A DNA stretch of 61,774 bases, from the NCBI GenBank assembly GCA_046537875.1, contig JBKHJZ010000003.1, forward strand, positions 1-61,774. The letters are read 5' to 3'. The notes beneath the pieces are model-generated. The model did not search any database. It saw nothing but the letters and a program-made list of their open reading frames with translations, and was not told where the DNA came from. This stretch comes from Acidimicrobiia bacterium (GTDB taxonomy: Bacteria > Actinomycetota > Acidimicrobiia > Acidimicrobiales > VFJN01). Positions within the stretch are counted from its first letter, which is position 1. Each line of letters begins with the position of its first letter. Shown piece by piece: positions 10,742-23,901 of this stretch. Both the position numbers and the translations under genes were made by a program.

Positions 10742-10810
10742 GATTGACCCGCAGGTCAGCCCACACATCAGCCCGACGGCCCCGCGCCGGCACACCGAGG
10801 GGGAGCATCC

Positions 10811-11959
10811 ATGGAGACCCGAGCCGCCATCCTCTGGGAGCCCAACACCGAGTGGAGCGTCGAGGACATCGAGCTCGACGCACCGAAGGCGGGCGAGGTC
10901 AAGGTCCAGCTCGCCGCCTCGGGCCTGTGCCACTCCGACGAGCACCTCCTCACCGGCGACATGGTGCTCGACCCCGAGATGGCCGCCATGCTGGGCGTGC
11001 AGCAGTTCCCGGTGATCGGCGGCCACGAGGGCGCGGGCACGGTCGTCGAGGCGGGACCGGGGGTCTCGACGCTGAAGGAGGGCGACCCGGTGTCGCTCGG
11101 CTTCATCCCCTCGTGCGGCCGGTGCCCGTCGTGCGCCCGCGGCTGGCAGCACCTGTGCGATCTGGGCGCGCTGCTCCTCGCCGGGCGCCAGGTGTCCGAC
11201 ATGACCGCCCGCCACCACGCCAAGGACGGGCGTGACCTCGGGCTCATGTGCTGCCTCGGCACGTTCTCGCCGGTCACGGTGGTGAACGAGGCGAGCTGCA
11301 TCAAGCTCGACGACGACATCCCGCTCGACCGGGCGGCGCTGGTCGGGTGCGGGGTGACCACCGGGTGGGGCGCGGCCACCAACGCGGCCGACGTGCAGCC
11401 CGGCGAGACGGTCGTGGTCATCGGCCTCGGCGGTGTGGGCATGAACGCGCTCCAGGGCGCGTCGATGGCCGGCGCCCGCTACGTCGTGGGCGTCGACCCG
11501 GTGGAGTGGAAGCGCGAGCAGGCGCCCACCTTCGGCGCCACGCACACCGCGCCCAGCATCGAGGAGGCGACCGCTCTCGTGGCCGACCTCACGTGGGGCG
11601 CGAACGCCGACAAGGCGATCCTCACCACCGGCGTCGCGGAGGGCAGCCTCATCGCCCCGATGCTGGGCCTCGTCGCCAAGGGTGGCCGGGCCGTGGTGAC
11701 GGCGGTCGCCCCCGTCAGCCAGATGGACGTGCAGCTCAACCTGTTCGAGCTGACGCTGCAGCGCAAGGAGCTGGTGGGCTGCATCTTCGGCAACGCCAAC
11801 CCGCGCCGCGACATCCCCCGGCTGCTGCGCCTCTACAAGGAGGGCAAGCTCAAGCTCGACGAGCTCGTCACCAGGAACTACTCGCTCGACGAGGTCAACC
11901 AGGGCTACCAGGACATGCGCGACGGCAGGAACATCCGTGGCGTGATCGACTACGCCTGA
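10811..11959 (+). CDS. Zinc-type alcohol dehydrogenase of the NDMA-dependent (nicotinoprotein) kind typically linked to mycofactocin
   Basis: METRAAILWEPNTEWSVEDIELDAPKAGEVKVQLAASGLCHSDEHLLTG... and structural-Zn cysteines CGRCPSCARGWQHLC. It lies directly upstream of mftA. Confidence 0.85.
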   Translation: METRAAILWEPNTEWSVEDIELDAPKAGEVKVQLAASGLCHSDEHLLTGDMVLDPEMAAMLGVQQFPVIGGHEGAGTVVEAGPGVSTLKEGDPVSLGFIPSCGRCPSCARGWQHLCDLGALLLAGRQVSDMTARHHAKDGRDLGLMCCLGTFSPVTVVNEASCIKLDDDIPLDRAALVGCGVTTGWGAATNAADVQPGETVVVIGLGGVGMNALQGASMAGARYVVGVDPVEWKREQAPTFGATHTAPSIEEATALVADLTWGANADKAILTTGVAEGSLIAPMLGLVAKGGRAVVTAVAPVSQMDVQLNLFELTLQRKELVGCIFGNANPRRDIPRLLRLYKEGKLKLDELVTRNYSLDEVNQGYQDMRDGRNIRGVIDYA

Positions 11960-11982
11960 TCGCTCGTCCGAAAGGCATCGCC

Positions 11983-12153
11983 GTGGCACTCACCAGCGAA
12001 CCGACGCACCAGCACGACACGCGGTCCGAGTCCGACGCGCCCGAGAGGCCCGAGGCGGCCGGGCTGCAGGAGTCGCACCACGAGGAGCCGCTCGCCGAGG
12101 ACGAGGTGCTCCTCGAGGAGATCTCGATCGACGGGATGTGCGGGGTCTACTGA
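11983..12153 (+). CDS. mftA: Mycofactocin precursor peptide MftA
   Basis: The reading frame ends ...AEDEVLLEEISIDGMCGVY*, the canonical MftA C-terminus (IDGMCGVY). It lies immediately upstream of mftB and mftC. The GTG at 11983 follows GAAAGG. The true start is uncertain, because no in-frame ATG exists except in the core. Confidence 0.85.
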   Translation: MALTSEPTHQHDTRSESDAPERPEAAGLQESHHEEPLAEDEVLLEEISIDGMCGVY

Positions 12154-12428
12154 GCCCGGTGCCCCTCGACGCCCCGGCCCCCCTCGAGCTGCACCCCGAC
12201 GTGGCGCTGCGCCCCGAGCCGTTCGGGGCGCTGGCGTACCACTACGGCACCCGCCGGCTGACGTTCCTGCGCTCGCCCGACCTGGTGCGGCTGGTCGAGG
12301 ATCTCGCCCGGCACCCCTCGGTCGACGACGCCCTGGCCGCGTCGCCGATCGAGGAGCGCCGCTGGCCGGCGTTCCGCACCGCCGTCGCCTCGCTGGCCGA
12401 GTCCGGCTTCCTTCGGGCCCGTGACTAG
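12138..12428 (+). CDS. mftB: Mycofactocin biosynthesis chaperone MftB (RRE-type peptide-binding protein)
   Basis: ...LHPDVALRPEPFGALAYHYGTRRLTFLRSPDLVRLVEDL... matches the MftB pattern, and it sits between mftA and mftC. Start is GTG 12138 (overlaps the mftA end) or GTG 12159. Confidence 0.85.
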   Translation: MRGLLSPVPLDAPAPLELHPDVALRPEPFGALAYHYGTRRLTFLRSPDLVRLVEDLARHPSVDDALAASPIEERRWPAFRTAVASLAESGFLRARD

Positions 12429-13551
12429 CCCGCTGGTCGACGAGCTGAAGCGGGGGCTCGACGCCCCCATCTGCCTGACGTGGGAGCTCACGTACGGGTG
12501 CAACCTGGCGTGCGTCCACTGCCTGTCGTCGTCGGGACGGCGCGATCCCCGTGAGCTGTCGACCGCCGAGGCCATGGCGGTGATCGACGAGCTCCACGCC
12601 ATGCAGGTCTTCTACGTCAACATCGGGGGCGGCGAGCCCACCATCCGGGGCGACTTCTACGACTTGGTCGACCACGCGGTGGCCCGGGGCGTGGGAGTGA
12701 AGTTCTCGACCAACGGCTCGACCATCGACGCGACCAGGGCGCAGCGGCTGGTGGGCAGCGACTACGTCGACGTCCAGGTGTCGATCGACGGGGCGACCGC
12801 GGCCACCAACGACCCGATCCGGGGTGAGGGCTCCTACGCGGCGGCGCGGCGGGCCATGGACCACCTGGCCGCGGCCGGGTTCGGCCGGTTCAAGATCAGC
12901 GTGGTGGTCACCCGCACCAACGTGGGCGAGCTCGACGCGTTCGAGGCGCTCGCCGCGCACTACGGGGCCCAGCTGCGCCTGACCCGCCTGCGCCCCTCCG
13001 GTCGCGGGGCCGACGTCTGGCACGACCTCCACCTGCTCCCCGACCAGCAGGTCCACCTCCACCGCTGGCTGGTCGACCGGCCGGACGTGCTCACCGGCGA
13101 CTCGTTCTTCCACCTCAACGCGTTGGGCGAGTCGCTGCCCGGCCTCAACCTGTGCGGCGCCGGGCGGGTGGTCTGCCTGATCGACCCGGTCGGCGACGTC
13201 TACGCCTGCCCGTTCGTGCTCCACCCCGAGTTCCGGGCCGGCAGCGTGCGGGATCCGGGCGGGTTCACCCACGTGTGGCGGAGCAGCGACCTGTTCCGCT
13301 CGCTGCGCGAGCCGCAGTCGGCCGGCGCCTGCGCGAGCTGCGGCAGCTACGACGCCTGCCAGGGCGGGTGCATGGCCGCCAAGTTCTTCACCGGGCTGCC
13401 GCTGGACGCCCCCGATCCCGAGTGCGTGCACGGCCACGGCGAGCGCGCGCTGGCCGGGGTCGCGGCCGGGTCCGCGGTGCCCCGGGGACCCGATCACGGC
13501 GCCCGCCGGGGGGCGGTTCCGGTGCGGCTCGGCCGCACCCGGCGCAATTGA
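12421..13551 (+). CDS. mftC: Mycofactocin radical SAM maturase MftC (SPASM domain)
   Basis: CLTWELTYGCNLACVHCLSS (CxxxCxxC), GGEPTIRGDF, and the C-terminal Cys-rich SPASM region CGAGRVVCLIDPVGDVYACPF...CASCGSYDACQGGC. Confidence 0.95.
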   Translation: MTSPLVDELKRGLDAPICLTWELTYGCNLACVHCLSSSGRRDPRELSTAEAMAVIDELHAMQVFYVNIGGGEPTIRGDFYDLVDHAVARGVGVKFSTNGSTIDATRAQRLVGSDYVDVQVSIDGATAATNDPIRGEGSYAAARRAMDHLAAAGFGRFKISVVVTRTNVGELDAFEALAAHYGAQLRLTRLRPSGRGADVWHDLHLLPDQQVHLHRWLVDRPDVLTGDSFFHLNALGESLPGLNLCGAGRVVCLIDPVGDVYACPFVLHPEFRAGSVRDPGGFTHVWRSSDLFRSLREPQSAGACASCGSYDACQGGCMAAKFFTGLPLDAPDPECVHGHGERALAGVAAGSAVPRGPDHGARRGAVPVRLGRTRRN

Positions 13552-13588
13552 CCGCGTCCCCCGCCGGACTGCGACACTCATCCACCTG

Positions 13589-15541
13589 ATGCGCCTGCTC
13601 GAGCCCCTCGCGTGGGGCCCGCTGACCGCCCGCAACCGCGTGGTGTTCGGCCCTCACGAGACCAACCTGGCTCGCCGGCGCGCGCTGTCGGACCGCCACG
13701 TGGCCTACTACCGGCGCCGGGCCTCGGGCGGCGCCGGGGTGATCGTGGTCGAGGAGGCCTCGGTGCACCCCAGCGACTGGCCCTACGAGCGCTGCCCGTT
13801 GGCCGCCGACTGCGCCGACGGCTGGTCGGCCATCGCCCGCGCCTGCCACGACGAGGGCGCGCTGGTGCTGGCGGCGCTGGGGCACGCCGGCGGCCAGGGG
13901 TCGAGCGCGTACAGCCAGGCGCCGCTGCTGGCGCCGTCGCGGGTGCCGGAGGTGACGACCCGAGAGGTCCCCAAGTGGATGGAGCCGGCGGACATCGCCG
14001 CGGTGGTCGACGGGTTCGCCGGGGCGGCCCGGGCCGCGGTCGCCGCGGGATGCGACGGGGTGGAGGTCAACGCCGGCCAGCACAGCCTGGTGCGCCAGTT
14101 TCTCTCGGGGCTCACCAACCACCGAGACGACGCCTGGGGGACCGACCGCCTGGCGTTCGCCCGCGAGCTGCTGGTCGCCGTGCGGGATGCGGTCGGCCCG
14201 GACGCGGTGGTGGGGTTGCGATTGTCGTGCGACGAGCTCGCGCCCTGGGCCGGGCTGACGCCCGAGGCGGCCACCGAGGTCGCGGCCGCGCTCGCCCCGC
14301 TGGTCGATCACGTCACGGTCGTGCGGGGATCGATCTACTCGACCGCGGCCACCCGCCCGGACGGCCACGTGGCGCCGGGCGTCAACCTCGACCTCGCCCG
14401 CCGGGTCAGGGGCGCGCTCCCCGCCGGCGTGGTGGTGGTGGTCCAGGGCTCGATCGTCGACGTCGGCATGGCCACCGAGGCGGTCGAGGGCGGCGCCTGC
14501 GACGCGGTCGAGATGACCCGCGCCCAGCTCGCGGACGCCCGGCTGGTCGCCAAGCTGGCCGCCGGCGAGGCCGACCGCATCCGCCCGTGCATCCTCTGCA
14601 ACCAGACCTGCCAGGTGCGGGACGTCCGGAACCCCGTCATCTCGTGCGTGGTCGACCCCCGCACGGGCCACGAGACCACCGATGCCGACGCCGACGACCC
14701 GGCCCCGGCACCGCACCCGGTCGATGTCCTCGTGGTCGGTGGCGGGCCGGCCGGGCTGGAGGCGGCCCGGGTGGCCGCGGGGCGGGGCCACCGGGTCACG
14801 CTCGCCGAGCGCGGCGACCGGCTGGGGGGCATGGTGCCGGTGGCCGCGGCCGGCGGGGGCCGGGAGCGGCTCGCCGCGGCGACCGACTGGCTGGCGGCCG
14901 AGTGCGAGCGGCTGGGGGTGAAGGTCGAGACCGGCCGGGAGATCACGGCGGCCGACCTCGCCGGTGTGGGAGAGACCGGCCGGGTGGTGCTCTGCACCGG
15001 CTCGCTGCCCGGGCGGCGCAGCTACGAGGTGGACGAGGGGGCCACGGCGGTCACGGCCGCCGAGGCGCTCACTCCCGGGTCGTCCCTCCCGTCCGACCCG
15101 TCCGGCGGGGCCGTGCTCGTCTGGGACCCGATCGGCGGACCGATCGGCATCTCGGTGGCCGAGCGCCTGCGCGCCGAGGGGCGCGACGTCGTCCTCGCCA
15201 CCCCCGACCTGGTCCCGGGCAACGAGCTGTCGCGCACCGGTGACCTGGCGCCCGCCAACGCCCGGATGCAGGCCGCGGGCGTGGTGCTCGCCCGCCGGAC
15301 GCTGCTGCGCACCGTGCGGGCTGGCGAGGTGGAGCTCGAGGACCGCTTCACCGGCGAGCGCCGCACGCTGGCCGTGGCGGCGGTGGTCGACGCCGGTCAC
15401 CGCCTGCCCGACGACCGGCTGTGGCGGGAGACCGGCGAGCGGCTGCCCGTCGCCGGTGACGCAGTGGCGCCCCGGACCATCCAGGAGGCGGTGCTGGAGG
15501 GCAGGCGCCGGGCCTTCGAGCTGGAGGCGGCCGCCCCGTGA
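13589..15541 (+). CDS. FadH/OYE-family flavin/iron-sulfur oxidoreductase (mycofactocin-system type 1)
   Basis: OYE-like N-terminus (LTARNRVVFGPHETNL...AYYRRRASGGAGVIVVEEASV). FadH-type 4Fe-4S motif IRPCILCNQTCQVRDVRNPVISC. Then a Rossmann motif VLVVGGGPAGLEAARVAAGRGHRVTLAER. Confidence 0.85.
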   Translation: MRLLEPLAWGPLTARNRVVFGPHETNLARRRALSDRHVAYYRRRASGGAGVIVVEEASVHPSDWPYERCPLAADCADGWSAIARACHDEGALVLAALGHAGGQGSSAYSQAPLLAPSRVPEVTTREVPKWMEPADIAAVVDGFAGAARAAVAAGCDGVEVNAGQHSLVRQFLSGLTNHRDDAWGTDRLAFARELLVAVRDAVGPDAVVGLRLSCDELAPWAGLTPEAATEVAAALAPLVDHVTVVRGSIYSTAATRPDGHVAPGVNLDLARRVRGALPAGVVVVVQGSIVDVGMATEAVEGGACDAVEMTRAQLADARLVAKLAAGEADRIRPCILCNQTCQVRDVRNPVISCVVDPRTGHETTDADADDPAPAPHPVDVLVVGGGPAGLEAARVAAGRGHRVTLAERGDRLGGMVPVAAAGGGRERLAAATDWLAAECERLGVKVETGREITAADLAGVGETGRVVLCTGSLPGRRSYEVDEGATAVTAAEALTPGSSLPSDPSGGAVLVWDPIGGPIGISVAERLRAEGRDVVLATPDLVPGNELSRTGDLAPANARMQAAGVVLARRTLLRTVRAGEVELEDRFTGERRTLAVAAVVDAGHRLPDDRLWRETGERLPVAGDAVAPRTIQEAVLEGRRRAFELEAAAP

Positions 15542-17538
15542 GGTCGACCCGCTACCGGCACCTGTTCACGCCGCTGCCGATCGGCCCGGTGGTGGTGCCG
15601 AACCGCATCGTGTTCTCGGCGCACCTCACCAACTACGCCGAGGACGGGCTGCCCACCGACCAGCACGCCGCCTACTACGCGGCGCGGGCCGCGGGCGGGG
15701 CGGGGCTGATCGTCACCGAGGAGCACTCGACCCACCCCACCGACTGGCCGTACGAGAAGCTGATCCACGGCTACCACCCCGAGGTGGTGCCCGCCTACCG
15801 CCGGATCACCGATGCCGTCCACCGGCACGGCACCCCGGTCTTCGCCCAGATCAACCACAACGGCGGGCAGGCCAGCTCGATGTACACGCGGCTGCCCGTG
15901 TGGGCGCCGTCGCCGGTGGCCGACCCCCTGTTCCGCGAGGTCGCCCACGGGGTCAGCCAGCGGGAGATCGCCGAGATCGTCGCCGGCTACGCGCTCGTGG
16001 CCGGGCACTGCAAGGCGGGGGGATTCGACGGGATCGAGCTCCAGTGCTCGCACAGCTCGATCGTGCGCGGGTTCCTCTCGCCGGCGGCGAACCACCGGAC
16101 CGACGGCTACGGCGGGTCGCTGGAGAACCGCGCCCGGCTGCTCCGCGAGATCGTCGAGGCCGTGCGGGAGGCGATCGGGCGCGACCTCGCCCTCGGGGTG
16201 CGGGTGTGCGGTGACGAGCTGATCGAGGGGGGCACGACCATCGACGAGGCCGTCGAGGTCGCCCGGATGGTCGAGGCCCAGGGCCTCACCGACTACGTGA
16301 ACACCTCGATCGGCGTGGCGACCGCCTCGCTGTTCATGATCGAGGCGTCGATGCAGGTGCCGCCCGGCTACGCGCTGTTCGTCCCGTCCGCGATCCGCAA
16401 GGCCGTCGACCTCCCGGTGGTGGGCGTGGGCCGGTTCAAGGACCCGCTCCAGGCCGACCGGGCACTGGAGGAGGGGCACTGCGACCTGGTCGGGGTGGTG
16501 CGGGGGCAGATCGCCGACGCCGACTTCGCCGCCAAGGCCCGCGCCGGGCGGGCCGAGGACATCCGGCTGTGCCTCTCGTGCAACCAGGAGTGCGTCGGCC
16601 GCATGGGCCTGAACCGCTGGCTCGGGTGCATCGAGAACCCGCTGACCGGGCGGGAGGCCGAGCGCGGGATCCCGGCGGGGCACCCGGACCGACCTCCTGC
16701 CGGTCGGGGCGATGCCGACCGGCCCCGGAGGGTGGTGGTGATCGGCGCCGGCCCCGCCGGGCTCGAAGCCGCCCGCGCCGCCGCCGAGCGCGGGCACCGG
16801 GTGACCGTGCTGGAGCGGGCCGCCGAGGCGGGGGGCCAGGTGCGGCTGGCCGCGAGCGTGGCGAGCCGAGCCGAGCTCGGCGACCTGGTGCGCAACCAGG
16901 TGCGGGCGGTCGGCCGGCTGGGGGTGGAGGTGCGCTACGGGGTGGAGGCGGACGCCGCGACCGTGCTGGCCGAGCGGCCCGACGTGGTGATCGTGGCGAC
17001 CGGCTCGTCGCCCGCCCGCCCCTGGTGGGCGCCGGGCGACGAGGCCCGCATCGTGGACGTCGTCGACGTGCTGGAGGGACGCGCCGAGCCGGCCGGTCGC
17101 GTGGTGGTGGTCGACGAGCTGGGCTTCCACCAGGCCACGTCGGTGGCCGAGCTGCTGGCCGACCGGGGCTGTGACGTCACGGTCGTGACGCCCGGGATGG
17201 TCGTGGGTCAGGACCTCGGGATCACGCTCGACATGGAGCACTGGCAGGTGCGGGCGGCGGCCAAGGGGATCGCCCAGGAGGTCGAGCTGGTGCCGATGGG
17301 CTGGGACGGCAACGGTGAGACCAACCGGCTGGTCGTGCAGCACCATCCGACCGGCGCCGAGCGCCGGTTCGACGCCGACTGGGTGGTGCTGGCGGTGCCC
17401 CCGTCGCCGGTGGACGGGCTGTACCACGAGTTGTCCGGCCGCGACGGTCTGGTCGTGCACCGGGCCGGGGACTGCGTCGCCCCCCGCCGCGCCCACGCGG
17501 CGGTGATCGAGGGCGAGCGGATCGGGGCGTCGCTGTGA
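15538..17538 (+). CDS. FadH/OYE-family flavin/iron-sulfur oxidoreductase (mycofactocin-system type 2)
   Basis: VPNRIVFSAHLTNY..., HRTDGYGGSLENRARLLREIVEAVREA, 4Fe-4S motif IRLCLSCNQECVGRMGLNRWLGC, and VVVIGAGPAGLEAARAAAERGHRVTVLER. GTGA overlap with the previous gene. Confidence 0.85.
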   Translation: MRSTRYRHLFTPLPIGPVVVPNRIVFSAHLTNYAEDGLPTDQHAAYYAARAAGGAGLIVTEEHSTHPTDWPYEKLIHGYHPEVVPAYRRITDAVHRHGTPVFAQINHNGGQASSMYTRLPVWAPSPVADPLFREVAHGVSQREIAEIVAGYALVAGHCKAGGFDGIELQCSHSSIVRGFLSPAANHRTDGYGGSLENRARLLREIVEAVREAIGRDLALGVRVCGDELIEGGTTIDEAVEVARMVEAQGLTDYVNTSIGVATASLFMIEASMQVPPGYALFVPSAIRKAVDLPVVGVGRFKDPLQADRALEEGHCDLVGVVRGQIADADFAAKARAGRAEDIRLCLSCNQECVGRMGLNRWLGCIENPLTGREAERGIPAGHPDRPPAGRGDADRPRRVVVIGAGPAGLEAARAAAERGHRVTVLERAAEAGGQVRLAASVASRAELGDLVRNQVRAVGRLGVEVRYGVEADAATVLAERPDVVIVATGSSPARPWWAPGDEARIVDVVDVLEGRAEPAGRVVVVDELGFHQATSVAELLADRGCDVTVVTPGMVVGQDLGITLDMEHWQVRAAAKGIAQEVELVPMGWDGNGETNRLVVQHHPTGAERRFDADWVVLAVPPSPVDGLYHELSGRDGLVVHRAGDCVAPRRAHAAVIEGERIGASL

Positions 17539-18500
17539 CCGCGATGGTGGCCGTGGTCGTGGTGCGAGACGGCGAGCTGCCCGCGGGTGGCGACGAGGCG
17601 GTCGCCGAGGCCGGTGGTCACGCCGTCCTGGCCGGCAGCGGCACCGAGCCGGCGGCCAAGGAGCTGCCCGGCGCCCGCCACGTCCGGTGCGCCGAGCTGG
17701 GCGACTTCGCGCCGGGCGGCTGGGCCCGGGCGCTGGCCCCGCTGGTCGCCGGGGCCGGGATCGTCGTGCTGCCCGGGAGTCCCGACGGGCGCGACCTCGC
17801 CCCCCGCCTGGCCCACGCCCTGGGGCGGCCGCTGCTGGCCGGTGCCACCGAGGTCACGCACGACCGGGTCGTGCTGGTGCGTTACGGCGGGCTCGTCTCG
17901 GAGACGCACGCGGTGACCGGTCCCGTGGTGGCCACGCTGGTGCCCGGGGTGCGCGGGGTCGAGCCCGCCGACAACGGCTCGCCCGCGGGGAACCGGACGG
18001 GCGCCCGGGTCGAGGTGGTGGACGTCCGGGTGCAAGACGACCGGCACGACGGCGTGGACGACGGCGTGCACGATGCGACGGTCGTCGAGGTGGTGCCGCC
18101 CGATCCCGGTACCGTCGACCTCGCCGACGCCCGGCGCATCGTCGCCGGCGGGGCCGGCCTCGGCGGGCCCGAGCCCTTCACGCTGCTCCCGCAGGTCGCC
18201 GCCGCTCTGGGTGCGGCGTCCGGGGCCACCCGGGTGGCGTCCGACCTCGGGTGGGCGCCCCACGACCGCTACATCGGCACCACCGGGGTGGCCGTCGATC
18301 CCGACCTCTACGTGGCGCTCGGCATCTCCGGGGCGGTGCAGCACGTGACCGGGCTCGGCAACCCGTCGCACGTCGTGGCGGTCAACACCGATCCGAGCGC
18401 CCCGATGATGGCGCTGGCCGACCTCGCGATCGTCACCGACGCCCGGGCGCTCCTCGACGCCCTCGCCGACCGGCTGGGGGTGGTCCGTGGCGGCGGATGA
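17535..18500 (+). CDS. etfA: Electron transfer flavoprotein alpha subunit (FixB-like)
   Basis: C-terminal FAD-binding signature: RIVAGGAGLGGPEPFTLLPQVAAALGAASGATRVASDLGW...IGTTGVAVDPDLYVALGISGAVQHVTGLGNPSHVVAVNTDPSAPMMALADLAIVTD. GTGA overlap with the upstream gene. Confidence 0.85.
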   Translation: MTAMVAVVVVRDGELPAGGDEAVAEAGGHAVLAGSGTEPAAKELPGARHVRCAELGDFAPGGWARALAPLVAGAGIVVLPGSPDGRDLAPRLAHALGRPLLAGATEVTHDRVVLVRYGGLVSETHAVTGPVVATLVPGVRGVEPADNGSPAGNRTGARVEVVDVRVQDDRHDGVDDGVHDATVVEVVPPDPGTVDLADARRIVAGGAGLGGPEPFTLLPQVAAALGAASGATRVASDLGWAPHDRYIGTTGVAVDPDLYVALGISGAVQHVTGLGNPSHVVAVNTDPSAPMMALADLAIVTDARALLDALADRLGVVRGGG

Positions 18501-19794
18501 GTGGGACGTGATCGTGGTGGGTGCCGGCCCGGCCGGCGCCAGCGCGGCGCTCGTGCTGGCACGCGCCGGCCGGCGGGTCGTGCTGGTCGAGCGCGGGCCC
18601 TTTCCCGGGTCGAAGAACATGTACGGCGGGGTGGTCTACGGGCGGGTGCTCGACGACCTGGTCCCCCGCTGGTGGGAGCACGTGCCGTTCCAGCGCTGGG
18701 TCACCCGGCGGCAGACCATGGCGCTCACCGGCACCCGGGCGCTGACCGTGGACTACCGGACCGACGCCTGGGGCCGCGAGCCCTACAACGGCTGCACCAC
18801 GTTCCGGGCCGACTTCGACGCCTGGTTGGCGGGGCTCGCCGAGGACGCCGGTGCCACGCTGCTGTGCGCCACCACGGTGACCGGGCTGGTGCGCGACGGC
18901 GGGTCCGGCCGGGTCACCGGGGTCACGACCGATCGGGGCGACCTGGCCGCGCCGCTCGTGATCGCCTGCGACGGCGCGAACTCGTTCCTGGCCAAGGAGG
19001 CCGGCCTGCACCCCCACGGCGACGACCCCGCCCACATGACGCTCGGCGTCAAGGAGGTGCTGGGATTCGACCGCCGCACGATCGACGAGCGCTTCGGCGT
19101 GCGGGGCGACGAGGGCGTGGACATCGAGATCCTCGGCTGCACCGGGGAGGTGCCGGGCGGGGGCTTCGTGTACACCAACGCCGAGTCGGTGAGCGTCGGT
19201 GTCGTGCTCCAGCTCTCCGCGCTGGGCGCCTCGGGAACCCGGCCCGAGGACTTCATCGCCGGCCTCGAGGCCCACCCCGCGGTGGCGCCGCTGGTCGAGG
19301 GCGGGGACGTGACCGAGTACTCCGCCCACCTGATCCCCGAGGGCGGCTACGACACCATGCCGGAGATCGTGGGCGACGGGCTGCTCGTCGCCGGCGACGC
19401 GGCCGGCCTCTGCCTGGCCGCGGGCATCTGGCTCGAGGGGGTGAACTTCGCGATCGGCTCCGGGGCCGCCGCCGGCGAGACGGCGCACGAGGCGCTGGCC
19501 GGCGCCGGCACCAGCGCCAGGGGGCTCGCCGGCTACCGGCGGCGGCTCGAGGCGAGCTTCGTGCTCCAGGACCACCGCAAGCTGCGCCGGGCGCCCGGCT
19601 TCGTGCTGTCCGACCGGGTGCAGCGCCACTACCCGCAGCTGGCGTGCGACCTGGTCGAGCAGCTGTTCACTGTGGAGAACCCCCGCCGCAAGAAGGGCGG
19701 GATGGCCGCGGCCCGCGCCGCGCTGCGCCGCAGCGACCTCCGGGTGCGCGACCTCGCCCGGGACGCCTGGACCGCCTGGAGGACGTTCGGGTGA
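18487..19794 (+). CDS. fixC: FixC-like FAD-dependent oxidoreductase (ETF:quinone oxidoreductase family)
   Basis: WDVIVVGAGPAGASAALVLARAGRRVVLVERGPFPGSKNMYGG... is the classic FixC/YdiS N-terminus, followed by ...EGVNFAIGSGAAAGE.... Confidence 0.85.
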   Translation: MAADEWDVIVVGAGPAGASAALVLARAGRRVVLVERGPFPGSKNMYGGVVYGRVLDDLVPRWWEHVPFQRWVTRRQTMALTGTRALTVDYRTDAWGREPYNGCTTFRADFDAWLAGLAEDAGATLLCATTVTGLVRDGGSGRVTGVTTDRGDLAAPLVIACDGANSFLAKEAGLHPHGDDPAHMTLGVKEVLGFDRRTIDERFGVRGDEGVDIEILGCTGEVPGGGFVYTNAESVSVGVVLQLSALGASGTRPEDFIAGLEAHPAVAPLVEGGDVTEYSAHLIPEGGYDTMPEIVGDGLLVAGDAAGLCLAAGIWLEGVNFAIGSGAAAGETAHEALAGAGTSARGLAGYRRRLEASFVLQDHRKLRRAPGFVLSDRVQRHYPQLACDLVEQLFTVENPRRKKGGMAAARAALRRSDLRVRDLARDAWTAWRTFG

Positions 19795-20108
19795 GCGGGC
19801 GAGCGAGCGGGCCGGGGCCCCGTGCGAGCGGGATCGACTTCCAGGACCGCATGGCCACCGTCGAGTTCCGGGTGGGGGAGCGCCCGCACATCACGGTCGA
19901 CGGCGACACGTGCCGGGGGTGCACCACCCGGGCGTGCGTCACCGCCTGCCCCGCCGACCTGTTCGTCCCCACCACGGACGGCGGCATCCTGTTCAACTAC
20001 GAGCAGTGCTTCGAGTGCGGCACCTGCTACATGGTCTGCAACCGCGAGGGCGCCATCACGTGGACCTACCCCGACGGCGGCCACGGCGTCGTGTTCCGGC
20101 GGTCGTGA
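19791..20108 (+). CDS. fixX: FixX-like ferredoxin-like protein
   Basis: ...ERPHITVDGDTCRGCTTRACVTACPADLFVPTTDGGILFNYEQCFECGTCYMVCNREGAITWTYPDGGHGVVFR. The GTG at 19791 overlaps the fixC stop. ATG 19851 is an alternative start. Confidence 0.8.
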   Translation: MSGRASGPGPRASGIDFQDRMATVEFRVGERPHITVDGDTCRGCTTRACVTACPADLFVPTTDGGILFNYEQCFECGTCYMVCNREGAITWTYPDGGHGVVFRRS

Positions 20109-20112
20109 GGCG

Positions 20113-20931
20113 ATGATCGGCGTCTGCCTGAAGTGGGTGGAGCGGCGGCCCGAGGTCGACCCGCTCACGGGCGAGGTGGCCACCGACCCGCGGACATCGG
20201 GCGCGAGCCCCGCCGACCAGGCGGCCCTCGAGTGGGCGTTGCGCCTGGCGGCCGCGTGGGACGACGAGGTGACGGCGCTGACCGCCGGACCGCCCGCGGC
20301 GGAGCCGGTGCTGCGGGAGGCGCTCGCCGCGGGTGCCGTCCGGGCCGTGCGCGTCGACCTGGCGGACGGCGCCTCCAGCGAGGCCACGGCGGCCGGGCTG
20401 GCCGCCGCGCTCGACGCCGCGGGGAGCGTGGCCGTCGTGTGCGGCGACTGGTCGCTCGACCGGGGGAGCGGTGCCGTGCCCGCCTACCTGGCCGCCCACC
20501 TGGGTGCCGCCCAGGCGCTCGGCCTGGTGGACCTCGACCCGGGTCCCCCCGGGCGCGTGCGGGCCGGGCGCCGGCTCGACGGCGGGCGCCGCGAGCGGCT
20601 GGCGGTGGCGGCGCCGATGGTGCTGTCGGTCGAGGGCCGGCTGCGCCTGCGGCGTGCCGGCCTGGACGGGATCCTGTCGGCCCGGGACGCGCCGATCGAG
20701 GTGCTCCCCGGGCCCCCGGCACATGCCCGGACGCCCCTCCGCACCGGCCCCTACCGACCCCGGGCGCGCGTCCTGCCGCCCCCGGGCGGGTCGTCGGCCC
20801 GCGAGCGCATCCTCGCCCTCACGGGTGCGCTGGCCGACCGGACGCCACCGGAGCAGGTCGTCCTCGACCCGGCACCGGCCGCCGACCGGCTCCTGGCCCA
20901 GCTGCGGGCCTGGGGCTACCTGGACGAGTGA
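20113..20931 (+). CDS. etfB: Electron transfer flavoprotein beta subunit (FixA-like)
   Basis: MIGVCLKWVERRPEVDPLTGEV...SPADQAALEWALRLAAAW...VTALTAGPPAAEPVLREALAAGA...VVCGDWSLDRGSGAVPAYLAAHLG follows the ETF-beta pattern. Confidence 0.8.
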   Translation: MIGVCLKWVERRPEVDPLTGEVATDPRTSGASPADQAALEWALRLAAAWDDEVTALTAGPPAAEPVLREALAAGAVRAVRVDLADGASSEATAAGLAAALDAAGSVAVVCGDWSLDRGSGAVPAYLAAHLGAAQALGLVDLDPGPPGRVRAGRRLDGGRRERLAVAAPMVLSVEGRLRLRRAGLDGILSARDAPIEVLPGPPAHARTPLRTGPYRPRARVLPPPGGSSARERILALTGALADRTPPEQVVLDPAPAADRLLAQLRAWGYLDE

Positions 20932-21617
20932 CCGCGAGCGACCCACCCGCCCGGCTGGCGGACGCCACCTGGACCGACGTCGCCGCGCGCCCACGCCTGC
21001 TGGCCGTGCCGCTGGGCTCGACCGAGCAGCACGGCCCCCACCTGCCGCTCGGAACCGACACGCTGGTGGCCTGCGCCCTGGCCGACCGGTTGGCCGCCGC
21101 CCGCCCCGACGTGGTGGTGGCGCCGGCCCTGCCGTACGGGTCGAGCGGCGAGCACGCGGGCTTTCCCGGGACGCTGTCGATCGGGCAGGAGGCCCTCGCC
21201 TCGGTGATCGTGGAGCTGGTCCGGTCGGCCGACGGGTTCCGGGGCGTGGTGCTGATCTCGGGTCACGGCGGCAACGCCGAGCCGCTGCGCCGCGCCGCCG
21301 CCACGCTGGCGTCCGAGGGGCGCCGGGTCCTGCCCTGGTCGCCGAGCGTCCCGGGTGGCGACGCGCACGCCGGGCGGACCGAGACGTCGCTGCTGCTCGC
21401 GCTCGCGCCCGCTCTGGTTCGCACGTCGGCCATCGAACCCGGGGACACCCGCCCGCTGCCGGAGCTCCTGCCGGAGCTGCGCGCGGGCGGTGTGGCCGCC
21501 GTGTCGGCCAACGGCGTCCTCGGCGACCCGCGCGGGGCGGACGCGGGCGAGGGTGAGCGCCTGCTGGATGCGCTCGCCGACGACCTGGTGCGGGCCGTGA
21601 CACGCTGGGTGTCGTGA
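20928..21617 (+). CDS. mftE: Mycofactocin biosynthesis peptidyl-dipeptidase MftE (creatininase fold)
   Basis: LLAVPLGSTEQHGPHLPLGTDT...APALPYGSSGEHAGFPGTLSI...LISGHGGN...HAGRTETS are creatinine-amidohydrolase-family metal motifs. GTGA overlap with etfB. Confidence 0.85.
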   Translation: MTASDPPARLADATWTDVAARPRLLAVPLGSTEQHGPHLPLGTDTLVACALADRLAAARPDVVVAPALPYGSSGEHAGFPGTLSIGQEALASVIVELVRSADGFRGVVLISGHGGNAEPLRRAAATLASEGRRVLPWSPSVPGGDAHAGRTETSLLLALAPALVRTSAIEPGDTRPLPELLPELRAGGVAAVSANGVLGDPRGADAGEGERLLDALADDLVRAVTRWVS

Positions 21618-22444
21618 CCACCGAGGCGACACCGCCCTCGCCCGACATCGCGACCGCACCGGTCGCGGTGATCACCGGCGCGGCGCGGGGCATCGGCGCC
21701 GCGGTCGCCCGGGGCCTGGCGGCCCAGGGGTGGCGGCTGGTGCTGGTCGATAAGTGCGCCGACGACCCGGCGCTGGGCTACCCGCTCGCCACGCGCGCCG
21801 ACCTGGCGGCCGTGGCGGCCGGGTGTGGCGGGCACGATGTCGCGGTCGACGTGGTGGCGGACGTGCGCGACCAGGCGGCGGTGACCGACGCGGTGGCGGT
21901 CGCCACCGAGCGCTTCGGGGGACTGGACGCCGCGGTCGCGGCCGCGGGCGGCCTCGCGGGCGGCGACCCGGCCTGGTCGACCGGCGACGACACCTGGGCG
22001 GCGATGATCGGCGTCAACCTGGAGGGAACGTGGCGGCTGGCCCGGGCCGCCGCGCCGGTGCTGCTCGCCCGCCCGGCGCCCCGGCACGGCCGGATCGTGG
22101 CCGTCGCGTCGGCCGGGGGCCTGGTGGGTCTGCCGTTGCTCTCCGCCTACAGCGCCGCCAAGCACGGGGTGGTCGGCCTCGTGCGGAGCCTGGCCGCCGA
22201 GCTGGGACCGCACGGCGTGACGGCCAACGCGGTGGCGCCCGGGTCGACGACCACCGACATGCTGCACGCGAGCGCCGGGGTGTACGACCTGGGGAGCCCG
22301 GCCGAGCTCCGGGTCCACCACCTGCTCGACCGCCTGCTCGAGCCGGACGAGGTGGCGGCGCTCGTCGTGTGGCTCTGCGGCCGGGCGAGCAGCGGGGTGA
22401 CCGGGGCCGTGCTCCCCGTCGACGCGGGCATGACCGCCCGGTGA
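21614..22444 (+). CDS. Short-chain dehydrogenase/reductase, mycofactocin-coupled type
   Basis: VAVITGAARGIGAAVARGLAAQGWRLVLVD (TGxxxGIG) and catalytic SAYSAAKHGVVGLVRSLA (YxxxK). Embedded between mftE and mftF with 4-nt overlaps on both sides. Confidence 0.85.
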   Translation: MTTEATPPSPDIATAPVAVITGAARGIGAAVARGLAAQGWRLVLVDKCADDPALGYPLATRADLAAVAAGCGGHDVAVDVVADVRDQAAVTDAVAVATERFGGLDAAVAAAGGLAGGDPAWSTGDDTWAAMIGVNLEGTWRLARAAAPVLLARPAPRHGRIVAVASAGGLVGLPLLSAYSAAKHGVVGLVRSLAAELGPHGVTANAVAPGSTTTDMLHASAGVYDLGSPAELRVHHLLDRLLEPDEVAALVVWLCGRASSGVTGAVLPVDAGMTAR

Positions 22445-23901
22445 GCGCCGCCTGTGCGCCGGCCGGATCGCCGGCGCGGCCCCTGCCGCCCGGCATGGCG
22501 CTGGCGCTCGACGCCGCGACCCGCCGCATCGACGGTGGGACGGTGCTGGTGGGCGGCGCCCCGCTGCGGCTGTTGCGGCTGAGCGCCGCGGGGGCGCGGC
22601 TGGTCGACCGGCTCGAGGCGGGGGAGCGGGTGCCCGACAGCGCGGCCGCTCAGCGCCTCGCCCGCCGGCTGCTCGACACTGGGATGGCCCATCCCCGGCC
22701 GGCCGGCACGGCGCGGCCGTACGGGCCGGGCGATGTCGCCGTGGTGGTCCCGACCCACGACCGGCCCGGGGGCCTGGCCCGCACGCTGGAGCGCCTGGGT
22801 TCGGTGGGCGAGGTGGTGGTGGTCGACGACGGCTCGGCCGATGCCGGGGCCACCGCGGCCGTCGCCGCCGCCGCGGGGGCACGCCTGGTGCGCCACGGCC
22901 GGTCGCGTGGCCCCGCCGCCGCCCGCAACGCAGGGTGGCGGGCCGCGGACGCGCCGGTGATCGCGTTCGTCGACGCCGATGTCGAGCCCTCCCGGGGCTG
23001 GTTGACGCCGCTCCTCGGGCACCTGGCCGACGAGGCCGTCGCCGCCGCCGCACCCCGCGTGGCCCCGCTGGTGCCGCCGGGAACCCCGGCCTGGCTCGCC
23101 GCGTACGAGCGGGTCCGGTCGCCGCTCGACCTGGGGCCGGTCGAGGCGCCGGTCCGCCCGGGCGGTCGCGTGCCCTACGTGCCGACGGCGACCCTGGTGG
23201 TCCGGCGGTCGGCGCTCGAGGACCTGGGCGGCTTCGACGAGGCGATGGCGTACGGCGAGGACGTCGACCTGGTGTGGCGGCTCGCGGCGCGCGGGGCGAC
23301 GGTGCGGTACGAGCCCGGGGCCGTGGTGCGGCACCCGGTGCGGCCGACGTTGGGTGCGTGGCTGCGCCAGCGCTACGACTACGGCTCGTCGGCGCCGCCG
23401 CTCGCGGCCCGCCACGCCGGGGCCGTGGCCCCGCTGACCGTCTCCGGGTGGAGCGCGGCCGCGTGGGCGCTGGTGCTGGCGGGCGCACCGGTCGGCGGGC
23501 TCGCGTTGGGCGCCGCCACCACCGCGGCGCTGGCCCCCAAGCTGCGGAGCCTGCGCCACCCGGTCCGGGAGGCGATCCGGCTGGCCGGGCTGGGCAACTT
23601 CGTCGCCGGGCGCCAGGTGGCCGACGCGCTCCGCCGGGCCTGGTTCCCCTTGGCGGTCGCGCTGGCTGGGAACCACCGGTCGCGGCCGGCGCTGGTGGCG
23701 GTGCTCGTCGTGCCGCCGCTGCTCGAGCGGGCCGAGCGGAGGCCGGCGCTCGCGCCGGGTCGCTGGGTGGCGCTGCGGCTCGCCGACGACCTGGCCTACG
23801 GCACCGGGGTGTGGGCCCGCTCGCTCGCGGATCGCACCACGGCGGCGCTCCGGCCGGCGTTCGCCGGCAGGTTCCCGCCGCCGGAGGGTGGTGCGTCGTG
23901 A
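22441..23901 (+). CDS. mftF: Mycofactocin glycosyltransferase MftF (GT2-like, with C-terminal membrane region)
   Basis: VAVVVPTHDRPGGLARTLERL...VVVVDDGSAD...ARNAGWRAADAPVIAFVDADV...YGEDVDLVWRL (GT2 DxD/ED motifs), followed by hydrophobic segments. The GTG at 22441 overlaps the SDR stop. Confidence 0.85.
   Translation: MSAACAPAGSPARPLPPGMALALDAATRRIDGGTVLVGGAPLRLLRLSAAGARLVDRLEAGERVPDSAAAQRLARRLLDTGMAHPRPAGTARPYGPGDVAVVVPTHDRPGGLARTLERLGSVGEVVVVDDGSADAGATAAVAAAAGARLVRHGRSRGPAAARNAGWRAADAPVIAFVDADVEPSRGWLTPLLGHLADEAVAAAAPRVAPLVPPGTPAWLAAYERVRSPLDLGPVEAPVRPGGRVPYVPTATLVVRRSALEDLGGFDEAMAYGEDVDLVWRLAARGATVRYEPGAVVRHPVRPTLGAWLRQRYDYGSSAPPLAARHAGAVAPLTVSGWSAAAWALVLAGAPVGGLALGAATTAALAPKLRSLRHPVREAIRLAGLGNFVAGRQVADALRRAWFPLAVALAGNHRSRPALVAVLVVPPLLERAERRPALAPGRWVALRLADDLAYGTGVWARSLADRTTAALRPAFAGRFPPPEGGAS

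What the first reader, a model, noticed from the sequence alone, without database searches (positions are those of the whole stretch)
13589..20931. FadH/OYE pair plus a split etfA-fixC-fixX-etfB module between mftC and mftE: a candidate mycofactocin-to-quinone electron conduit, or an O2-independent MftD substitute
Seen in sequence: two paralogous proteins of about 650 aa each carry an OYE-type FMN barrel and a FadH-type Cys motif (CILCNQTC...SC and CLSCNQEC...GC). Each also has a GxGxxG Rossmann domain (VVGGGPAGLEAA / VIGAGPAGLEAA). They are immediately followed by ETF-alpha, FixC (ETF:quinone-oxidoreductase-like), the ferredoxin-like FixX and ETF-beta. The order alpha-C-X-beta is unusual: canonical fix/etf operons read beta-alpha(-C-X). 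Established knowledge: this three-domain architecture is shared by 2,4-dienoyl-CoA reductase FadH and by trimethylamine, dimethylamine and histamine dehydrogenases. Trimethylamine dehydrogenase passes its electrons to a dedicated ETF. FixABCX-type complexes connect ETF to the quinone pool, and some of them bifurcate electrons. Curated protein families named as mycofactocin-system FadH/OYE oxidoreductases and mycofactocin-associated ETF subunits exist, but I know of no biochemical characterisation. Inference, hypothesis (a): the module is the respiratory exit route for electrons collected on mycofactocinol by the flanking ADH and SDR, replacing MftG. Hypothesis (b): one FadH/OYE enzyme acts like an amine dehydrogenase on AHDP, performing the MftD step with ETF rather than O2 as acceptor. 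Neither paralogue has the Cys used for covalent 6-S-cysteinyl-FMN in trimethylamine dehydrogenase (the positions read GPHETN and SAHLTN), so they look more like FadH.
Basis: partly seen in the sequence, partly recalled or inferred. Interest (0 to 1): 0.8.

Follow-up and report, generated by a model that had tools for sequence, protein, structure and literature searches.

The report
Mycofactocin cluster with ETF module
This is a database-named but never characterised variant of the mycofactocin cofactor gene cluster: two iron-sulfur flavoenzymes, a dedicated electron-transfer flavoprotein and a quinone reductase are present, while the usual flavoenzymes MftD and MftG are missing from the cluster, so it is the leading candidate for how many microbes that lack MftG re-oxidise (and perhaps mature) the cofactor.

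Summary
Window 13589-20931 encodes OYE1, OYE2, EtfA, a FixC-like protein, a FixX-like protein and EtfB, in one translationally coupled operon between mftC and mftE. Four of the six score above the curated cut-offs of NCBIfam's mycofactocin-specific families, so the parts are known by name but not by function.

Comparative genomics adds three points:
- The order etfA-fixC-fixX-etfB next to mft genes recurs in 338 species-level genomes, six Streptomyces plasmids and two haloarchaeal plasmids.
- No ETF-type cluster examined contains mftD or mftG. None of 80 MftD-centred loci contains ETF or FixCX genes. Four of four cross-referenced genomes carrying the ETF/FixCX module (three confirmed here, one taken as such from a single gene match) lack MftG genome-wide.
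- The OYE pair is not itself the substitute. Rhodococcus clusters carry mftD-OYE1-SDR-OYE2-mftE-mftF-mftG and no ETF.

The element that replaces MftD and MftG is therefore the ETF/FixCX wiring. Best reading: a trimethylamine-dehydrogenase-like chain, OYE2 FMN to [4Fe-4S] to ETF to FixCX to menaquinone, re-oxidises mycofactocinol and possibly makes premycofactocin from AHDP. The ETF lacks the bifurcating signatures. The function remains untested.

The parts
10811..11959 (+). NDMA-dependent (mycofactocin-dependent) Zn alcohol dehydrogenase. It is a presumed electron donor to the mycofactocin pool.
   Evidence: TIGR03989 591 bits against a cut-off of 440.
11983..12153 (+). mftA precursor peptide, ending ...EEISIDGMCGVY*.
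   Evidence: Translation. The C-terminal IDGMCGVY matches the invariant mycofactocin core described in PMC3023750.
12138..12428 (+). mftB chaperone.
   Evidence: TIGR03967 103 bits against a cut-off of 33.
12421..13551 (+). mftC radical SAM maturase.
   Evidence: TIGR03962 613 bits against a cut-off of 265.
13589..15541 (+). OYE1, the divergent FadH/OYE-type Fe-S flavoprotein paralogue. It is probably a partner subunit.
   Evidence: TIGR03996 769 bits against 628. It has the 4-Cys motif and the first GxGxxG. The family lacks the GVGR arginine that I take, from general knowledge of OYE/TMADH enzymes, to bind the FMN phosphate, and the GGS of RxDxYGGS. Five of 34 orthologues have lost three of the four cluster Cys.
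15538..17538 (+). OYE2, the highly conserved FadH/OYE-type Fe-S flavoprotein and the likely catalytic subunit.
   Evidence: TIGR03997 965 bits against 793. The active-site motifs and the CLSCNQEC...C cluster motif are invariant in 49 of 49 orthologues. Closest structures are NCR 6QKG, FadH 1PS9, histamine DH and TMADH. The single OYE of the haloarchaeal clusters is of the OYE2 type.
17535..18500 (+). EtfA, the large ETF subunit that carries the electron-transferring FAD.
   Evidence: NF038209 381 bits against 240. PF00766 99 bits. The FAD-domain motifs are at least 90% conserved in 64 orthologues.
18487..19794 (+). FixC-like protein of the ETF:quinone oxidoreductase type (FAD).
   Evidence: 240 bits, E 4.5e-70, to T. 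maritima EtfABCX FixC 7KOE_C. 319 bits to NF007450, below its cut-off.
19791..20108 (+). FixX-like ferredoxin with two [4Fe-4S] motifs. An alternative start lies at 19851.
   Evidence: FixX NF011993 54 bits, below its cut-off of 166. The motifs CxxCx4Cx3CP and CxxCxxCx3C are conserved in 80 orthologues.
20113..20931 (+). EtfB, the small ETF subunit.
   Evidence: TIGR04503 277 bits against 200. The bifurcating motif RXGV reads T-D-P-R. The Leu at the recognition-loop anchor position is conserved.
20928..21617 (+). mftE peptidase.
   Evidence: TIGR03964 297 bits against a cut-off of 172.
21614..22444 (+). Mycofactocin-coupled SDR, a nicotinoprotein-type dehydrogenase.
   Evidence: TIGR04504 339 bits against a cut-off of 250.
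22441..23901 (+). mftF glycosyltransferase.
   Evidence: TIGR03965 450 bits against a cut-off of 280.

Best explanation
The window holds the 'ETF-type' mycofactocin (MFT) cluster. OYE1 and OYE2 form an Fe-S flavoenzyme: OYE2 is catalytic and OYE1 is a degenerate partner. Both have FMN barrel, [4Fe-4S] and FAD/ADP-domain motifs and lack an NAD(P)H-type second glycine motif.

In this cluster type the enzyme is wired, as trimethylamine dehydrogenase is, to a dedicated non-bifurcating ETF, and on through FixC (FAD) and FixX (two [4Fe-4S]) to menaquinone.

The chain takes the place of the two flavoenzymes that canonical clusters use to remove electrons from the pyrrolidinone core. It re-oxidises mycofactocinol, which is the MftG function. 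It probably also oxidises the 3-amino precursor AHDP to premycofactocin, which is the MftD function.

What is shown and what is inferred:
- Shown: gene identities, operon structure, conservation of the architecture, and mutual exclusion with mftD and mftG.
- Inferred: the substrates, the heteromer, the direction of electron flow and the quinone end-point.
For: - Family membership and cofactor motifs.
- One operon with 4-base overlaps running from mftB to mftF.
- etfA-fixC-fixX-etfB lies next to mft genes in 74 of 80 species-level loci, and mftE directly follows etfB in 67 of 75. The same holds on six Streptomyces plasmids, in Thermopolyspora and in Saccharopolyspora. Two haloarchaea have a version with one OYE2-type enzyme.
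- No MftD or MftG homologue is found in the 61.8-kb window, in the 80 loci, or in the one Streptomyces plasmid locus fetched.
- Plasmid 2x2 table: 8 with the module and no MftD, 4 with MftD and no module, none in the other two cells.
- None of 80 MftD-centred metagenome loci holds ETF or FixCX genes.
- Streptomyces sp. SAT1, S. yangpuensis, Haloterrigena and Halolamina are MftG-negative genome-wide in the published table, where 76 of 311 mftC genomes lack MftG. The authors call the substitute an open question.
- Both OYEs lack the glycine motif that I recall FadH having in its NADPH domain (not shown by any tool output), and OYE2 shares the GVGRF and SH172S motifs with histamine DH.
- EtfB keeps a Leu where canonical ETFs have the recognition-loop anchor Leu (a role I state from knowledge of TMADH-ETF and MCAD-ETF structures), and EtfA keeps the ET-FAD site.
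- PMFT/PMFTH2 at -255 mV against menaquinone at -74 mV makes the flow exergonic.
Against: - Rhodococcus clusters carry OYE1 and OYE2 together with mftD and mftG and no ETF. The OYE pair therefore has some other primary role, and its active site need not bind the MFT core.
- Characterised amine dehydrogenases of this architecture use a covalent Cys-FMN. That Cys is absent here.
- Genome-wide absence of mftD in ETF-type genomes was not testable.
- Thermomicrobium roseum lacks MftG and the module, so loss of MftG is not always compensated in this way.
- Seven loci have ETF/FixCX-mftE-mftF with no OYE adjacent.
- There are no biochemical data for any member.
Confidence: 0.45

Rival explanations
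1. MftG replacement only. The OYE/ETF/FixCX chain is a mycofactocinol:menaquinone oxidoreductase. AHDP deamination in these organisms is done by an unlinked oxidase, for example another FMN-dependent alpha-hydroxy-acid-oxidase paralogue.
For: - Same exclusion data for mftG.
- MftD and MftG are separable: T. roseum has MftD and no MftG.
- The OYE pair coexists with MftD in Rhodococcus.
- Catalytic recycling justifies a six-gene electron chain better than a one-off biosynthetic step does (inference).
Against: - mftD is missing from every ETF-type cluster and replicon examined, whereas it is adjacent to mftC in canonical clusters.
- No candidate oxidase is seen in the 61.8-kb window.
Confidence: 0.2
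2. Client catabolic pathway. The OYE pair and the SDR act on an unknown organic substrate, as an enone/ene-reductase or desaturase pair like BaiA/BaiCD/BaiH or the Rhodococcus 'carvone reductase'. ETF/FixCX is simply their electron acceptor, as it is for acyl-CoA dehydrogenases. The link to MFT runs only through the SDR.
For: - BaiCD is the next-best NCBIfam hit of OYE2, at 383 bits.
- OYE1-SDR-OYE2 is a conserved trio in Rhodococcus.
- Carvone reductase of R. erythropolis (EC 1.3.99.25) has an unidentified acceptor and follows the carveol dehydrogenase step, an SDR nicotinoprotein studied in the mycofactocin literature.
Against: - This does not explain why ETF/FixCX excludes both mftD and mftG, nor why the module sits inside the biosynthetic operon between mftC and mftE in bacteria and next to mftF in archaea.
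- Both OYEs have Ser in place of the Tyr (FadH Tyr166) that I recall to be the proton donor of ene-reduction; the alignment gives the position, not the role.
Confidence: 0.15
3. One reading: the module is purely biosynthetic. It is an AHDP dehydrogenase (an MftD substitute) that uses ETF in place of O2, and it has no role in recycling the cofactor.
For: - The module occupies the mftD slot.
- Exclusion with mftD is perfect in the plasmid table.
- The chemistry is of the TMADH/histamine-DH type: amine oxidation, then Fe-S, then ETF.
Against: - A six-gene respiratory-type chain for a stoichiometric step is uneconomical (inference).
- mftG is missing as well.
- There is no covalent-flavin Cys.
- The OYE pair coexists with MftD in Rhodococcus.
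- The carriers are mostly aerobes, so there is no evident need to avoid O2 (own knowledge of these taxa, not tested).
Confidence: 0.1
4. FixABCX-like electron bifurcation. The ETF/FixCX set generates low-potential electrons, for example to reduce the radical-SAM clusters of MftC or a ferredoxin. NADH or mycofactocinol would be the donor and quinone the high-potential acceptor.
For: - FixC is closest to the bifurcating T. maritima EtfABCX subunit.
- EtfB's best PDB hit is the bifurcating Acidaminococcus ETF.
- FixX has two clusters.
Against: - The small-subunit group-2 motifs RXGV and GXXSPTXV are absent. The site reads T-D-x-R, with the Thr found in human non-bifurcating ETF.
- The large-subunit motif RPXFGG is reduced to R-x-G-G.
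- Profile scores to bifurcating and non-bifurcating ETFs are similar.
- This reading does not explain the loss of mftD and mftG.
Confidence: 0.05

Closest known systems
NCBIfam/TIGRFAMs 'mycofactocin system FadH/OYE family oxidoreductase 1 and 2' (TIGR03996, TIGR03997) and 'mycofactocin-associated ETF alpha/beta' (NF038209, TIGR04503)
   Same: The window proteins score above all four curated cut-offs. RefSeq annotates the identical gene order on Streptomyces plasmids.
   Different: These families carry names only. No function is assigned and no paper in the library links mycofactocin with ETF. FixC and FixX have no mycofactocin-specific model.
Trimethylamine dehydrogenase with its dedicated ETF (Methylophilus W3A1; PDB 1O94), and histamine dehydrogenase
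   Same: A three-domain FMN/[4Fe-4S]/ADP-type architecture, no NAD(P)H motif, a GVGR(F/Y) motif and a conserved His172-equivalent, and a co-encoded ETF whose beta subunit keeps a Leu at the recognition-loop anchor position.
   Different: There is no 6-S-cysteinyl-FMN Cys: the positions are Leu and Glu. There are two paralogous subunits rather than a homodimer. The ETF is followed by its own FixCX quinone reductase. The substrate is unknown.
EtfABCX/FixABCX (T. maritima 7KOE; Azotobacter Fix)
   Same: FixC is 240 bits to 7KOE_C. FixX has two [4Fe-4S] clusters. The subunit set is four proteins.
   Different: The gene order is alpha-C-X-beta rather than beta-alpha-C-X. The bifurcating-FAD motifs are absent or truncated. 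An OYE-type dehydrogenase is attached.
MftG (GMC mycofactocin dehydrogenase) and MftD (premycofactocin synthase)
   Same: The proposed function is the same: removal of two electrons from C3 of the pyrrolidinone core and delivery to the respiratory chain. The distribution is mutually exclusive.
   Different: There is no homology. The chain uses an Fe-S flavoprotein, ETF and FixCX instead of single flavoenzymes.
Rhodococcus-type mft cluster (mftABC-D-OYE1-SDR-OYE2-E-F-G)
   Same: Orthologous OYE1 and OYE2 lie inside the mft operon. The OYE1 peculiarities are the same and the second Rossmann motif is missing in the same way.
   Different: It has mftD and mftG and no ETF/FixCX. In a neighbour-joining tree its OYE2 forms a sister clade to the ETF-linked OYE2 (87 and 96 of 100 bootstraps).
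FadH (2,4-dienoyl-CoA reductase, 1PS9) and 2-naphthoyl-CoA reductase (6QKG)
   Same: These are the best structural relatives, at 245-272 bits. They share the 4-Cys motif and the FAD-type GxGxxG.
   Different: FadH Tyr166, which I recall to be the proton donor, aligns with Ser in both paralogues. The NADPH-domain GxGxxG is absent.

Membership tests
Mycofactocin system FadH/OYE oxidoreductases 1 and 2 (TIGR03996, TIGR03997) | HMM score above the curated cut-off | tested here: met
   769 bits against 627.9 and 965.5 bits against 793.15.
Mycofactocin system FadH/OYE oxidoreductases 1 and 2 (TIGR03996, TIGR03997) | Location inside or next to an mft biosynthetic cluster | tested here: met
   The genes lie between mftC and mftE. 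The same is true in related loci.
Mycofactocin-associated ETF alpha/beta (NF038209, TIGR04503) | HMM score above the curated cut-off | tested here: met
   381 bits against 240 and 277 bits against 200.
Bifurcating (group 2) ETF / EtfABCX | Small-subunit motifs RXGV and GXXSPTXV around the bifurcating FAD (PMC10734219) | tested here: not met
   The RXGV site reads T-D-P-R (family consensus T-D-x-R). The C-terminal region does not align and has no SPT motif.
Bifurcating (group 2) ETF / EtfABCX | Large-subunit motif RPXFGG with the essential Arg | tested here: inconclusive
   The window reads VRYGG and the family consensus is R-x-G-G. The Arg and the GG are at least 90% conserved, but P-x is missing and the alignment is ambiguous.
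Bifurcating (group 2) ETF / EtfABCX | FixC and FixX partner subunits | tested here: met
   FixC is 240 bits to 7KOE_C. FixX has eight conserved Cys.
Trimethylamine/histamine dehydrogenase family | 6-S-cysteinyl-FMN Cys after the N-terminal His | tested here: not met
   The histamine DH sequence V-P-H-C aligns with S-A-H-L of OYE2. OYE1 has H-E.
Trimethylamine/histamine dehydrogenase family | [4Fe-4S] CxxCxxxCx11C motif and ETF as redox partner | tested here: met
   The motif is invariant in 49 OYE2 orthologues. ETF genes are adjacent. Actual electron transfer was not tested.
Trimethylamine/histamine dehydrogenase family | ADP rather than FAD in the middle domain | not testable with these tools
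   GxGxxG is present. The identity of the ligand needs biochemistry.
FadH (2,4-dienoyl-CoA reductase) | Tyr166 proton donor (role stated from memory of the FadH literature) | tested here: not met
   The position is Ser in both paralogues, and in 49 of 49 and 33 of 34 orthologues.
FadH (2,4-dienoyl-CoA reductase) | NADPH-binding GxGxxG in the third domain | tested here: not met
   OYE2 reads V-D-E-L-G-F-H-Q and OYE1 reads W-D-P-I-G-G-P-I. The FadH motif itself is recalled from memory, because the printed alignment stops just before it.
MftD (TIGR03966) and MftG (TIGR03970, TIGR04542, NF038210) | Sequence homology to the FMN_dh or GMC families | tested here: not met
   tblastn finds no hit at E<=1e-4 anywhere in the window. 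The module proteins belong to unrelated families.

The most novel reading that the evidence does not exclude
In ETF-type mycofactocin organisms a single trimethylamine-dehydrogenase-like Fe-S flavoenzyme (OYE2, with OYE1 as partner) performs two reactions. One is the one-off maturation step, AHDP to premycofactocin. The other is the catalytic re-oxidation of mycofactocinol. Both send electrons through a cofactor-dedicated ETF and FixCX into menaquinone. This would be a complete, previously unrecognised respiratory entry module specific to a peptide-derived cofactor. It would be shared by Actinomycetota and haloarchaea and would be ancestral to the OYE2 lineage.
Probability: 0.3. Interest if true: 0.8.

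Novelty: new member of a known kind. Interest (0 to 1): 0.6.

Why it matters
- The authors who established MftG as the link between mycofactocin and respiration state that about 25% of mftC genomes lack MftG. They leave open whether another enzyme substitutes for it.
- Haft already noted in 2011 that MftD is not universal.
- This cluster type gives a concrete, widespread and genetically tractable candidate for both gaps. It occurs in 338 species-level genomes and in Streptomyces, Saccharopolyspora, Thermopolyspora, Acidimicrobiia and haloarchaea.
- The exclusion pattern found here says which part to test first: the ETF/FixCX wiring, not the OYE pair alone.
- It would also be one of few dedicated dehydrogenase-ETF pairs of the trimethylamine-dehydrogenase kind known to me, and an ETF/FixCX set that appears not to bifurcate.

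Tried and rejected
- **An OYE2 active-site signature that tells cluster types apart.** I looked for His172/Asp226 in ETF-linked enzymes against Gln172/Tyr226 in R. erythropolis. Rejected: R. opacus-type enzymes sit next to mftD and mftG and have His172/Glu226.
- **Inferring the Saccharopolyspora erythraea cluster type from consecutive WP accession numbers.** Rejected: in S. kobensis the accessions advance irregularly per gene.
- **Classifying the ETF in the five-group scheme of Garcia Costas et al. 2017.** That paper is not held, and neither are the Ayikpoe reviews. I used the motifs quoted in PMC10734219 instead.
- **Looking for a conserved unknown neighbour that could be a hidden MftD or MftG.** The largest clusters of unassigned ORFs in the 80 loci are ABC transporters, an acyl-CoA ligase, thiolase-like proteins and a sortase. 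None occurs in more than 13 loci.
- **Checking the upstream genes of the loci without OYE** (L037, L021, L061). They are unrelated genes, so these are split clusters and not a third dehydrogenase type.
- **Named hits from a third homologue search.** They gave no further species overlap with the published MftG table.
- No structure prediction was run. It would not settle cofactor or substrate identity.

Full report
**1. What is in the window**

The window has about 75% G+C, and GC3 frame statistics give an unambiguous gene map. All of the following genes lie on the + strand:

| Gene | Coordinates | Evidence |
|---|---|---|
| NDMA-dependent alcohol dehydrogenase | 10811-11959 | TIGR03989, 591 bits |
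| mftA | 11983-12153 | ends IDGMCGVY |
| mftB | 12138-12428 | |
| mftC | 12421-13551 | |
| OYE1 | 13589-15541 | |
| OYE2 | 15538-17538 | |
| EtfA | 17535-18500 | |
| FixC-like | 18487-19794 | |
| FixX-like | 19791-20108 | |
| EtfB | 20113-20931 | |
| mftE | 20928-21617 | |
| mycofactocin-coupled SDR | 21614-22444 | |
| mftF | 22441-23901 | |

Ten of the twelve junctions from mftA to the gene after mftF are overlaps of 4-16 bases, so this is one translationally coupled operon.

**2. Family assignment**

- OYE1, OYE2, EtfA and EtfB exceed the curated cut-offs of TIGR03996, TIGR03997, NF038209 and TIGR04503. These are the models named for mycofactocin-system FadH/OYE oxidoreductases and mycofactocin-associated ETF subunits.
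- FixC and FixX fall below the cut-offs of the E. coli-type models. FixC is nevertheless 240 bits (E 4.5e-70) to the FixC subunit of T. maritima EtfABCX. FixX keeps eight Cys in two [4Fe-4S] motifs.
- RefSeq annotates the same 11-gene order on a Streptomyces plasmid.
- The object is therefore known by name. No paper in the searchable library contains both 'mycofactocin' and 'electron transfer flavoprotein', and the 2011 paper that defined the system does not discuss these genes.

**3. Distribution**

- A profile of EtfB relatives found relatives in 338 of about 186,000 species-representative genomes. The best 80 loci are mostly Acidimicrobiales and other Actinomycetota metagenome-assembled genomes.
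- 74 of the 80 loci contain a core mft gene.
- mftE directly follows etfB in 67 of 75 loci with enough flank.
- 24 of 47 loci with enough upstream sequence show the full run mftC-OYE1-OYE2-etfA-fixC-fixX-etfB. The remainder includes versions with OYE2 only and split clusters.
- The same architecture occurs in Thermopolyspora flexuosa and Saccharopolyspora kobensis, and module proteins (FixC, EtfB or OYE2) were found in at least six further Saccharopolyspora species.
- On the plasmids of Haloterrigena turkmenica and Halolamina, a single OYE2-type enzyme is followed by etfA-fixC-fixX-(SDR)-etfB next to mftF.
- The split alpha-C-X-beta order is thus a hallmark conserved across two domains of life.

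**4. Relation to MftD and MftG**

Reference MftD and MftG sequences came from annotated canonical clusters: Tsukamurella, M. chubuense, T. roseum and Streptomyces sp. NBC_00080.

- tblastn found no MftD or MftG homologue in the 61.8-kb window, in any of the 80 loci, or in the Streptomyces module locus.
- Among the 12 plasmids that carry mftC, eight have the module and no MftD. Four have MftD and no module. No plasmid has both or neither. Fisher's exact p is 1/495.
- Within one genus, Streptomyces sp. NBC_00080 is canonical, with mftG and mftD. Six other Streptomyces plasmids are ETF-type.
- A reciprocal metagenome scan centred on MftD gave 80 loci. 34 of them include mftC and none includes ETF or FixCX genes.
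- At genome level, the published MftC/MftG co-occurrence table lists Streptomyces sp. SAT1, S. yangpuensis, Haloterrigena turkmenica and Halolamina sp. CBA1230 as MftG-negative. The background is 76 of 311. On the SAT1 plasmid only an OYE2 match next to an annotated mycofactocin-associated EtfA was seen, so that genome counts as module-bearing on this evidence alone. The four Acidimicrobiia isolates in that table are also MftG-negative.
- The authors state that what replaces MftG in about 25% of genomes is an open question.

**5. The counter-example that reshapes the interpretation**

- Two MftD-centred loci contain OYE genes. L099 is 98% identical to Rhodococcus qingshengii. It reads mftB-mftC-mftD-OYE1-SDR-OYE2-x-mftE-mftF-mftG. 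TIGR03996 scores 1190 bits, TIGR03997 1006 bits, and MftD and MftG score far above their cut-offs. It has no ETF.
- R. opacus has the same layout.
- The OYE pair therefore coexists with MftD and MftG. The part that excludes them is ETF/FixCX.
- In a neighbour-joining tree, Rhodococcus OYE2 and ETF-linked bacterial OYE2 are sister clades (87 and 96 of 100 bootstraps). The ETF-linked archaeal enzymes branch outside both. This is weak evidence that the ETF linkage is the older state.

**6. Properties of the proteins**

OYE2:
- It is extremely conserved. The active-site and cluster motifs are invariant in 49 of 49 orthologues.
- It has Ser in place of FadH Tyr166.
- It keeps a His that aligns with the conserved His of the 'GAH' motif of histamine dehydrogenase.
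- It shares the GVGRF motif with histamine dehydrogenase.
- It lacks the covalent-flavin Cys and the NADPH-domain glycine motif.

OYE1:
- It lacks the FMN-phosphate Arg and the GGS of the RxDxYGGS motif in all 34 orthologues.
- It has lost three of the four cluster Cys in five of the 34.
- Together with the OYE2-only variants, this points to OYE2 as the catalytic subunit and OYE1 as a degenerate partner. This is an inference.

ETF:
- EtfA keeps a strongly conserved ET-FAD domain.
- EtfB keeps a conserved Leu at the recognition-loop anchor position (R-R-A-S-L aligned with human R-Y-A-T-L); that canonical ETFs use this Leu to dock on partner dehydrogenases is from my own knowledge.
- Of the three group-2 (bifurcating) motifs quoted in PMC10734219, RXGV reads T-D-x-R, sharing the Thr of human non-bifurcating ETF. 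GXXSPTXV is absent. RPXFGG is shortened to R-x-G-G.
- A family profile scores bifurcating and non-bifurcating ETFs about equally.
- The ETF is most likely a simple, non-bifurcating carrier.

**7. Mechanism proposed**

- Electrons leave C3 of the mycofactocin pyrrolidinone at the OYE2 FMN. They pass through the [4Fe-4S] cluster to the ETF flavin, then to FixC/FixX and menaquinone.
- The flow is exergonic: -255 mV for PMFT/PMFTH2 against -74 mV for menaquinone.
- This supplies the MftG function.
- AHDP differs from mycofactocinol only by NH2 in place of OH at C3. The architecture is that of amine dehydrogenases that use ETF. The same enzyme may therefore also supply the MftD function. This second point is the weaker inference, because of the Rhodococcus clusters and the missing covalent flavin.
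- In Rhodococcus, the pair may instead couple mycofactocinol to an enone substrate. The 'carvone reductase' of R. erythropolis is listed with an unidentified electron acceptor. This is a lead only.

**8. Verdict**

Hypothesis (a) is favoured. Hypothesis (b) is possible, but not as originally framed.
- The locus is a new member of a curated but uncharacterised kind.
- Its interest lies in making an explicitly open question directly testable.

Noticed in passing
window 23898-24950 (+): A peptidase-M19 (membrane dipeptidase) gene (198 bits) follows mftF. If it starts at the GTG at 23898 it overlaps mftF by 4 bases, which would extend the coupled operon. It has no counterpart in the 80 related loci.
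   Followed up: partly
window 42007-43785 (-): A PQQ-dependent alcohol dehydrogenase with a C-terminal cytochrome c domain (quinohaemoprotein type). The organism therefore appears to have a second, mycofactocin-independent route for alcohol oxidation.
   Followed up: no
window 27926-38260 (+): A hopanoid and isoprenoid cluster: hpnC, hpnD, hpnE, a polyprenyl synthase, squalene-hopene cyclase, hpnH and dxs. In the ORF 33972-35465, an HpnG-like N-terminal part (77 bits, below its cut-off) and a full IspH lie in one frame with no stop between them. This may be a fusion.
   Followed up: no
window 5015-6844 (+): A DUF222 plus HNH endonuclease protein. I recall this type as a repeated, possibly mobile, gene of actinobacteria. 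A DUF222 protein also lies near the module in L021.
   Followed up: no
L037, L041, L046, L048, L053, L061, L062 (about 7400-13000 in each): Split clusters: etfA-fixC-fixX-etfB-(x)-mftE-mftF with unrelated genes upstream and no OYE or mftC within 10 kb. ETF/FixCX stays with mftE and mftF even when the OYE genes lie elsewhere.
   Followed up: partly
OYE1 orthologues in the 80 loci (alignment): Five of 34 OYE1 orthologues have Ser or Ala at three of the four [4Fe-4S] Cys positions. All 49 OYE2 orthologues keep them.
   Followed up: partly
L167 (Kitasatospora gansuensis) 6400-15400: The ETF-type cluster looks decayed. No mftB or mftC gene is called, OYE1 is split into two ORFs, and a 656-aa product combines ETF-alpha and FixC-type domains.
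   Followed up: no
P0133: A 1031-aa protein 60% identical to OYE2 over the full query length. It may be a fusion of OYE2 with a neighbouring module gene.
   Followed up: no
L053 and L054 record titles: Two metagenome bins that carry the module are titled 'Ferrithrix thermotolerans DSM 19514' and 'Bifidobacterium breve'. The latter is very unlikely for this gene set and is probably a mislabelled bin.
   Followed up: no
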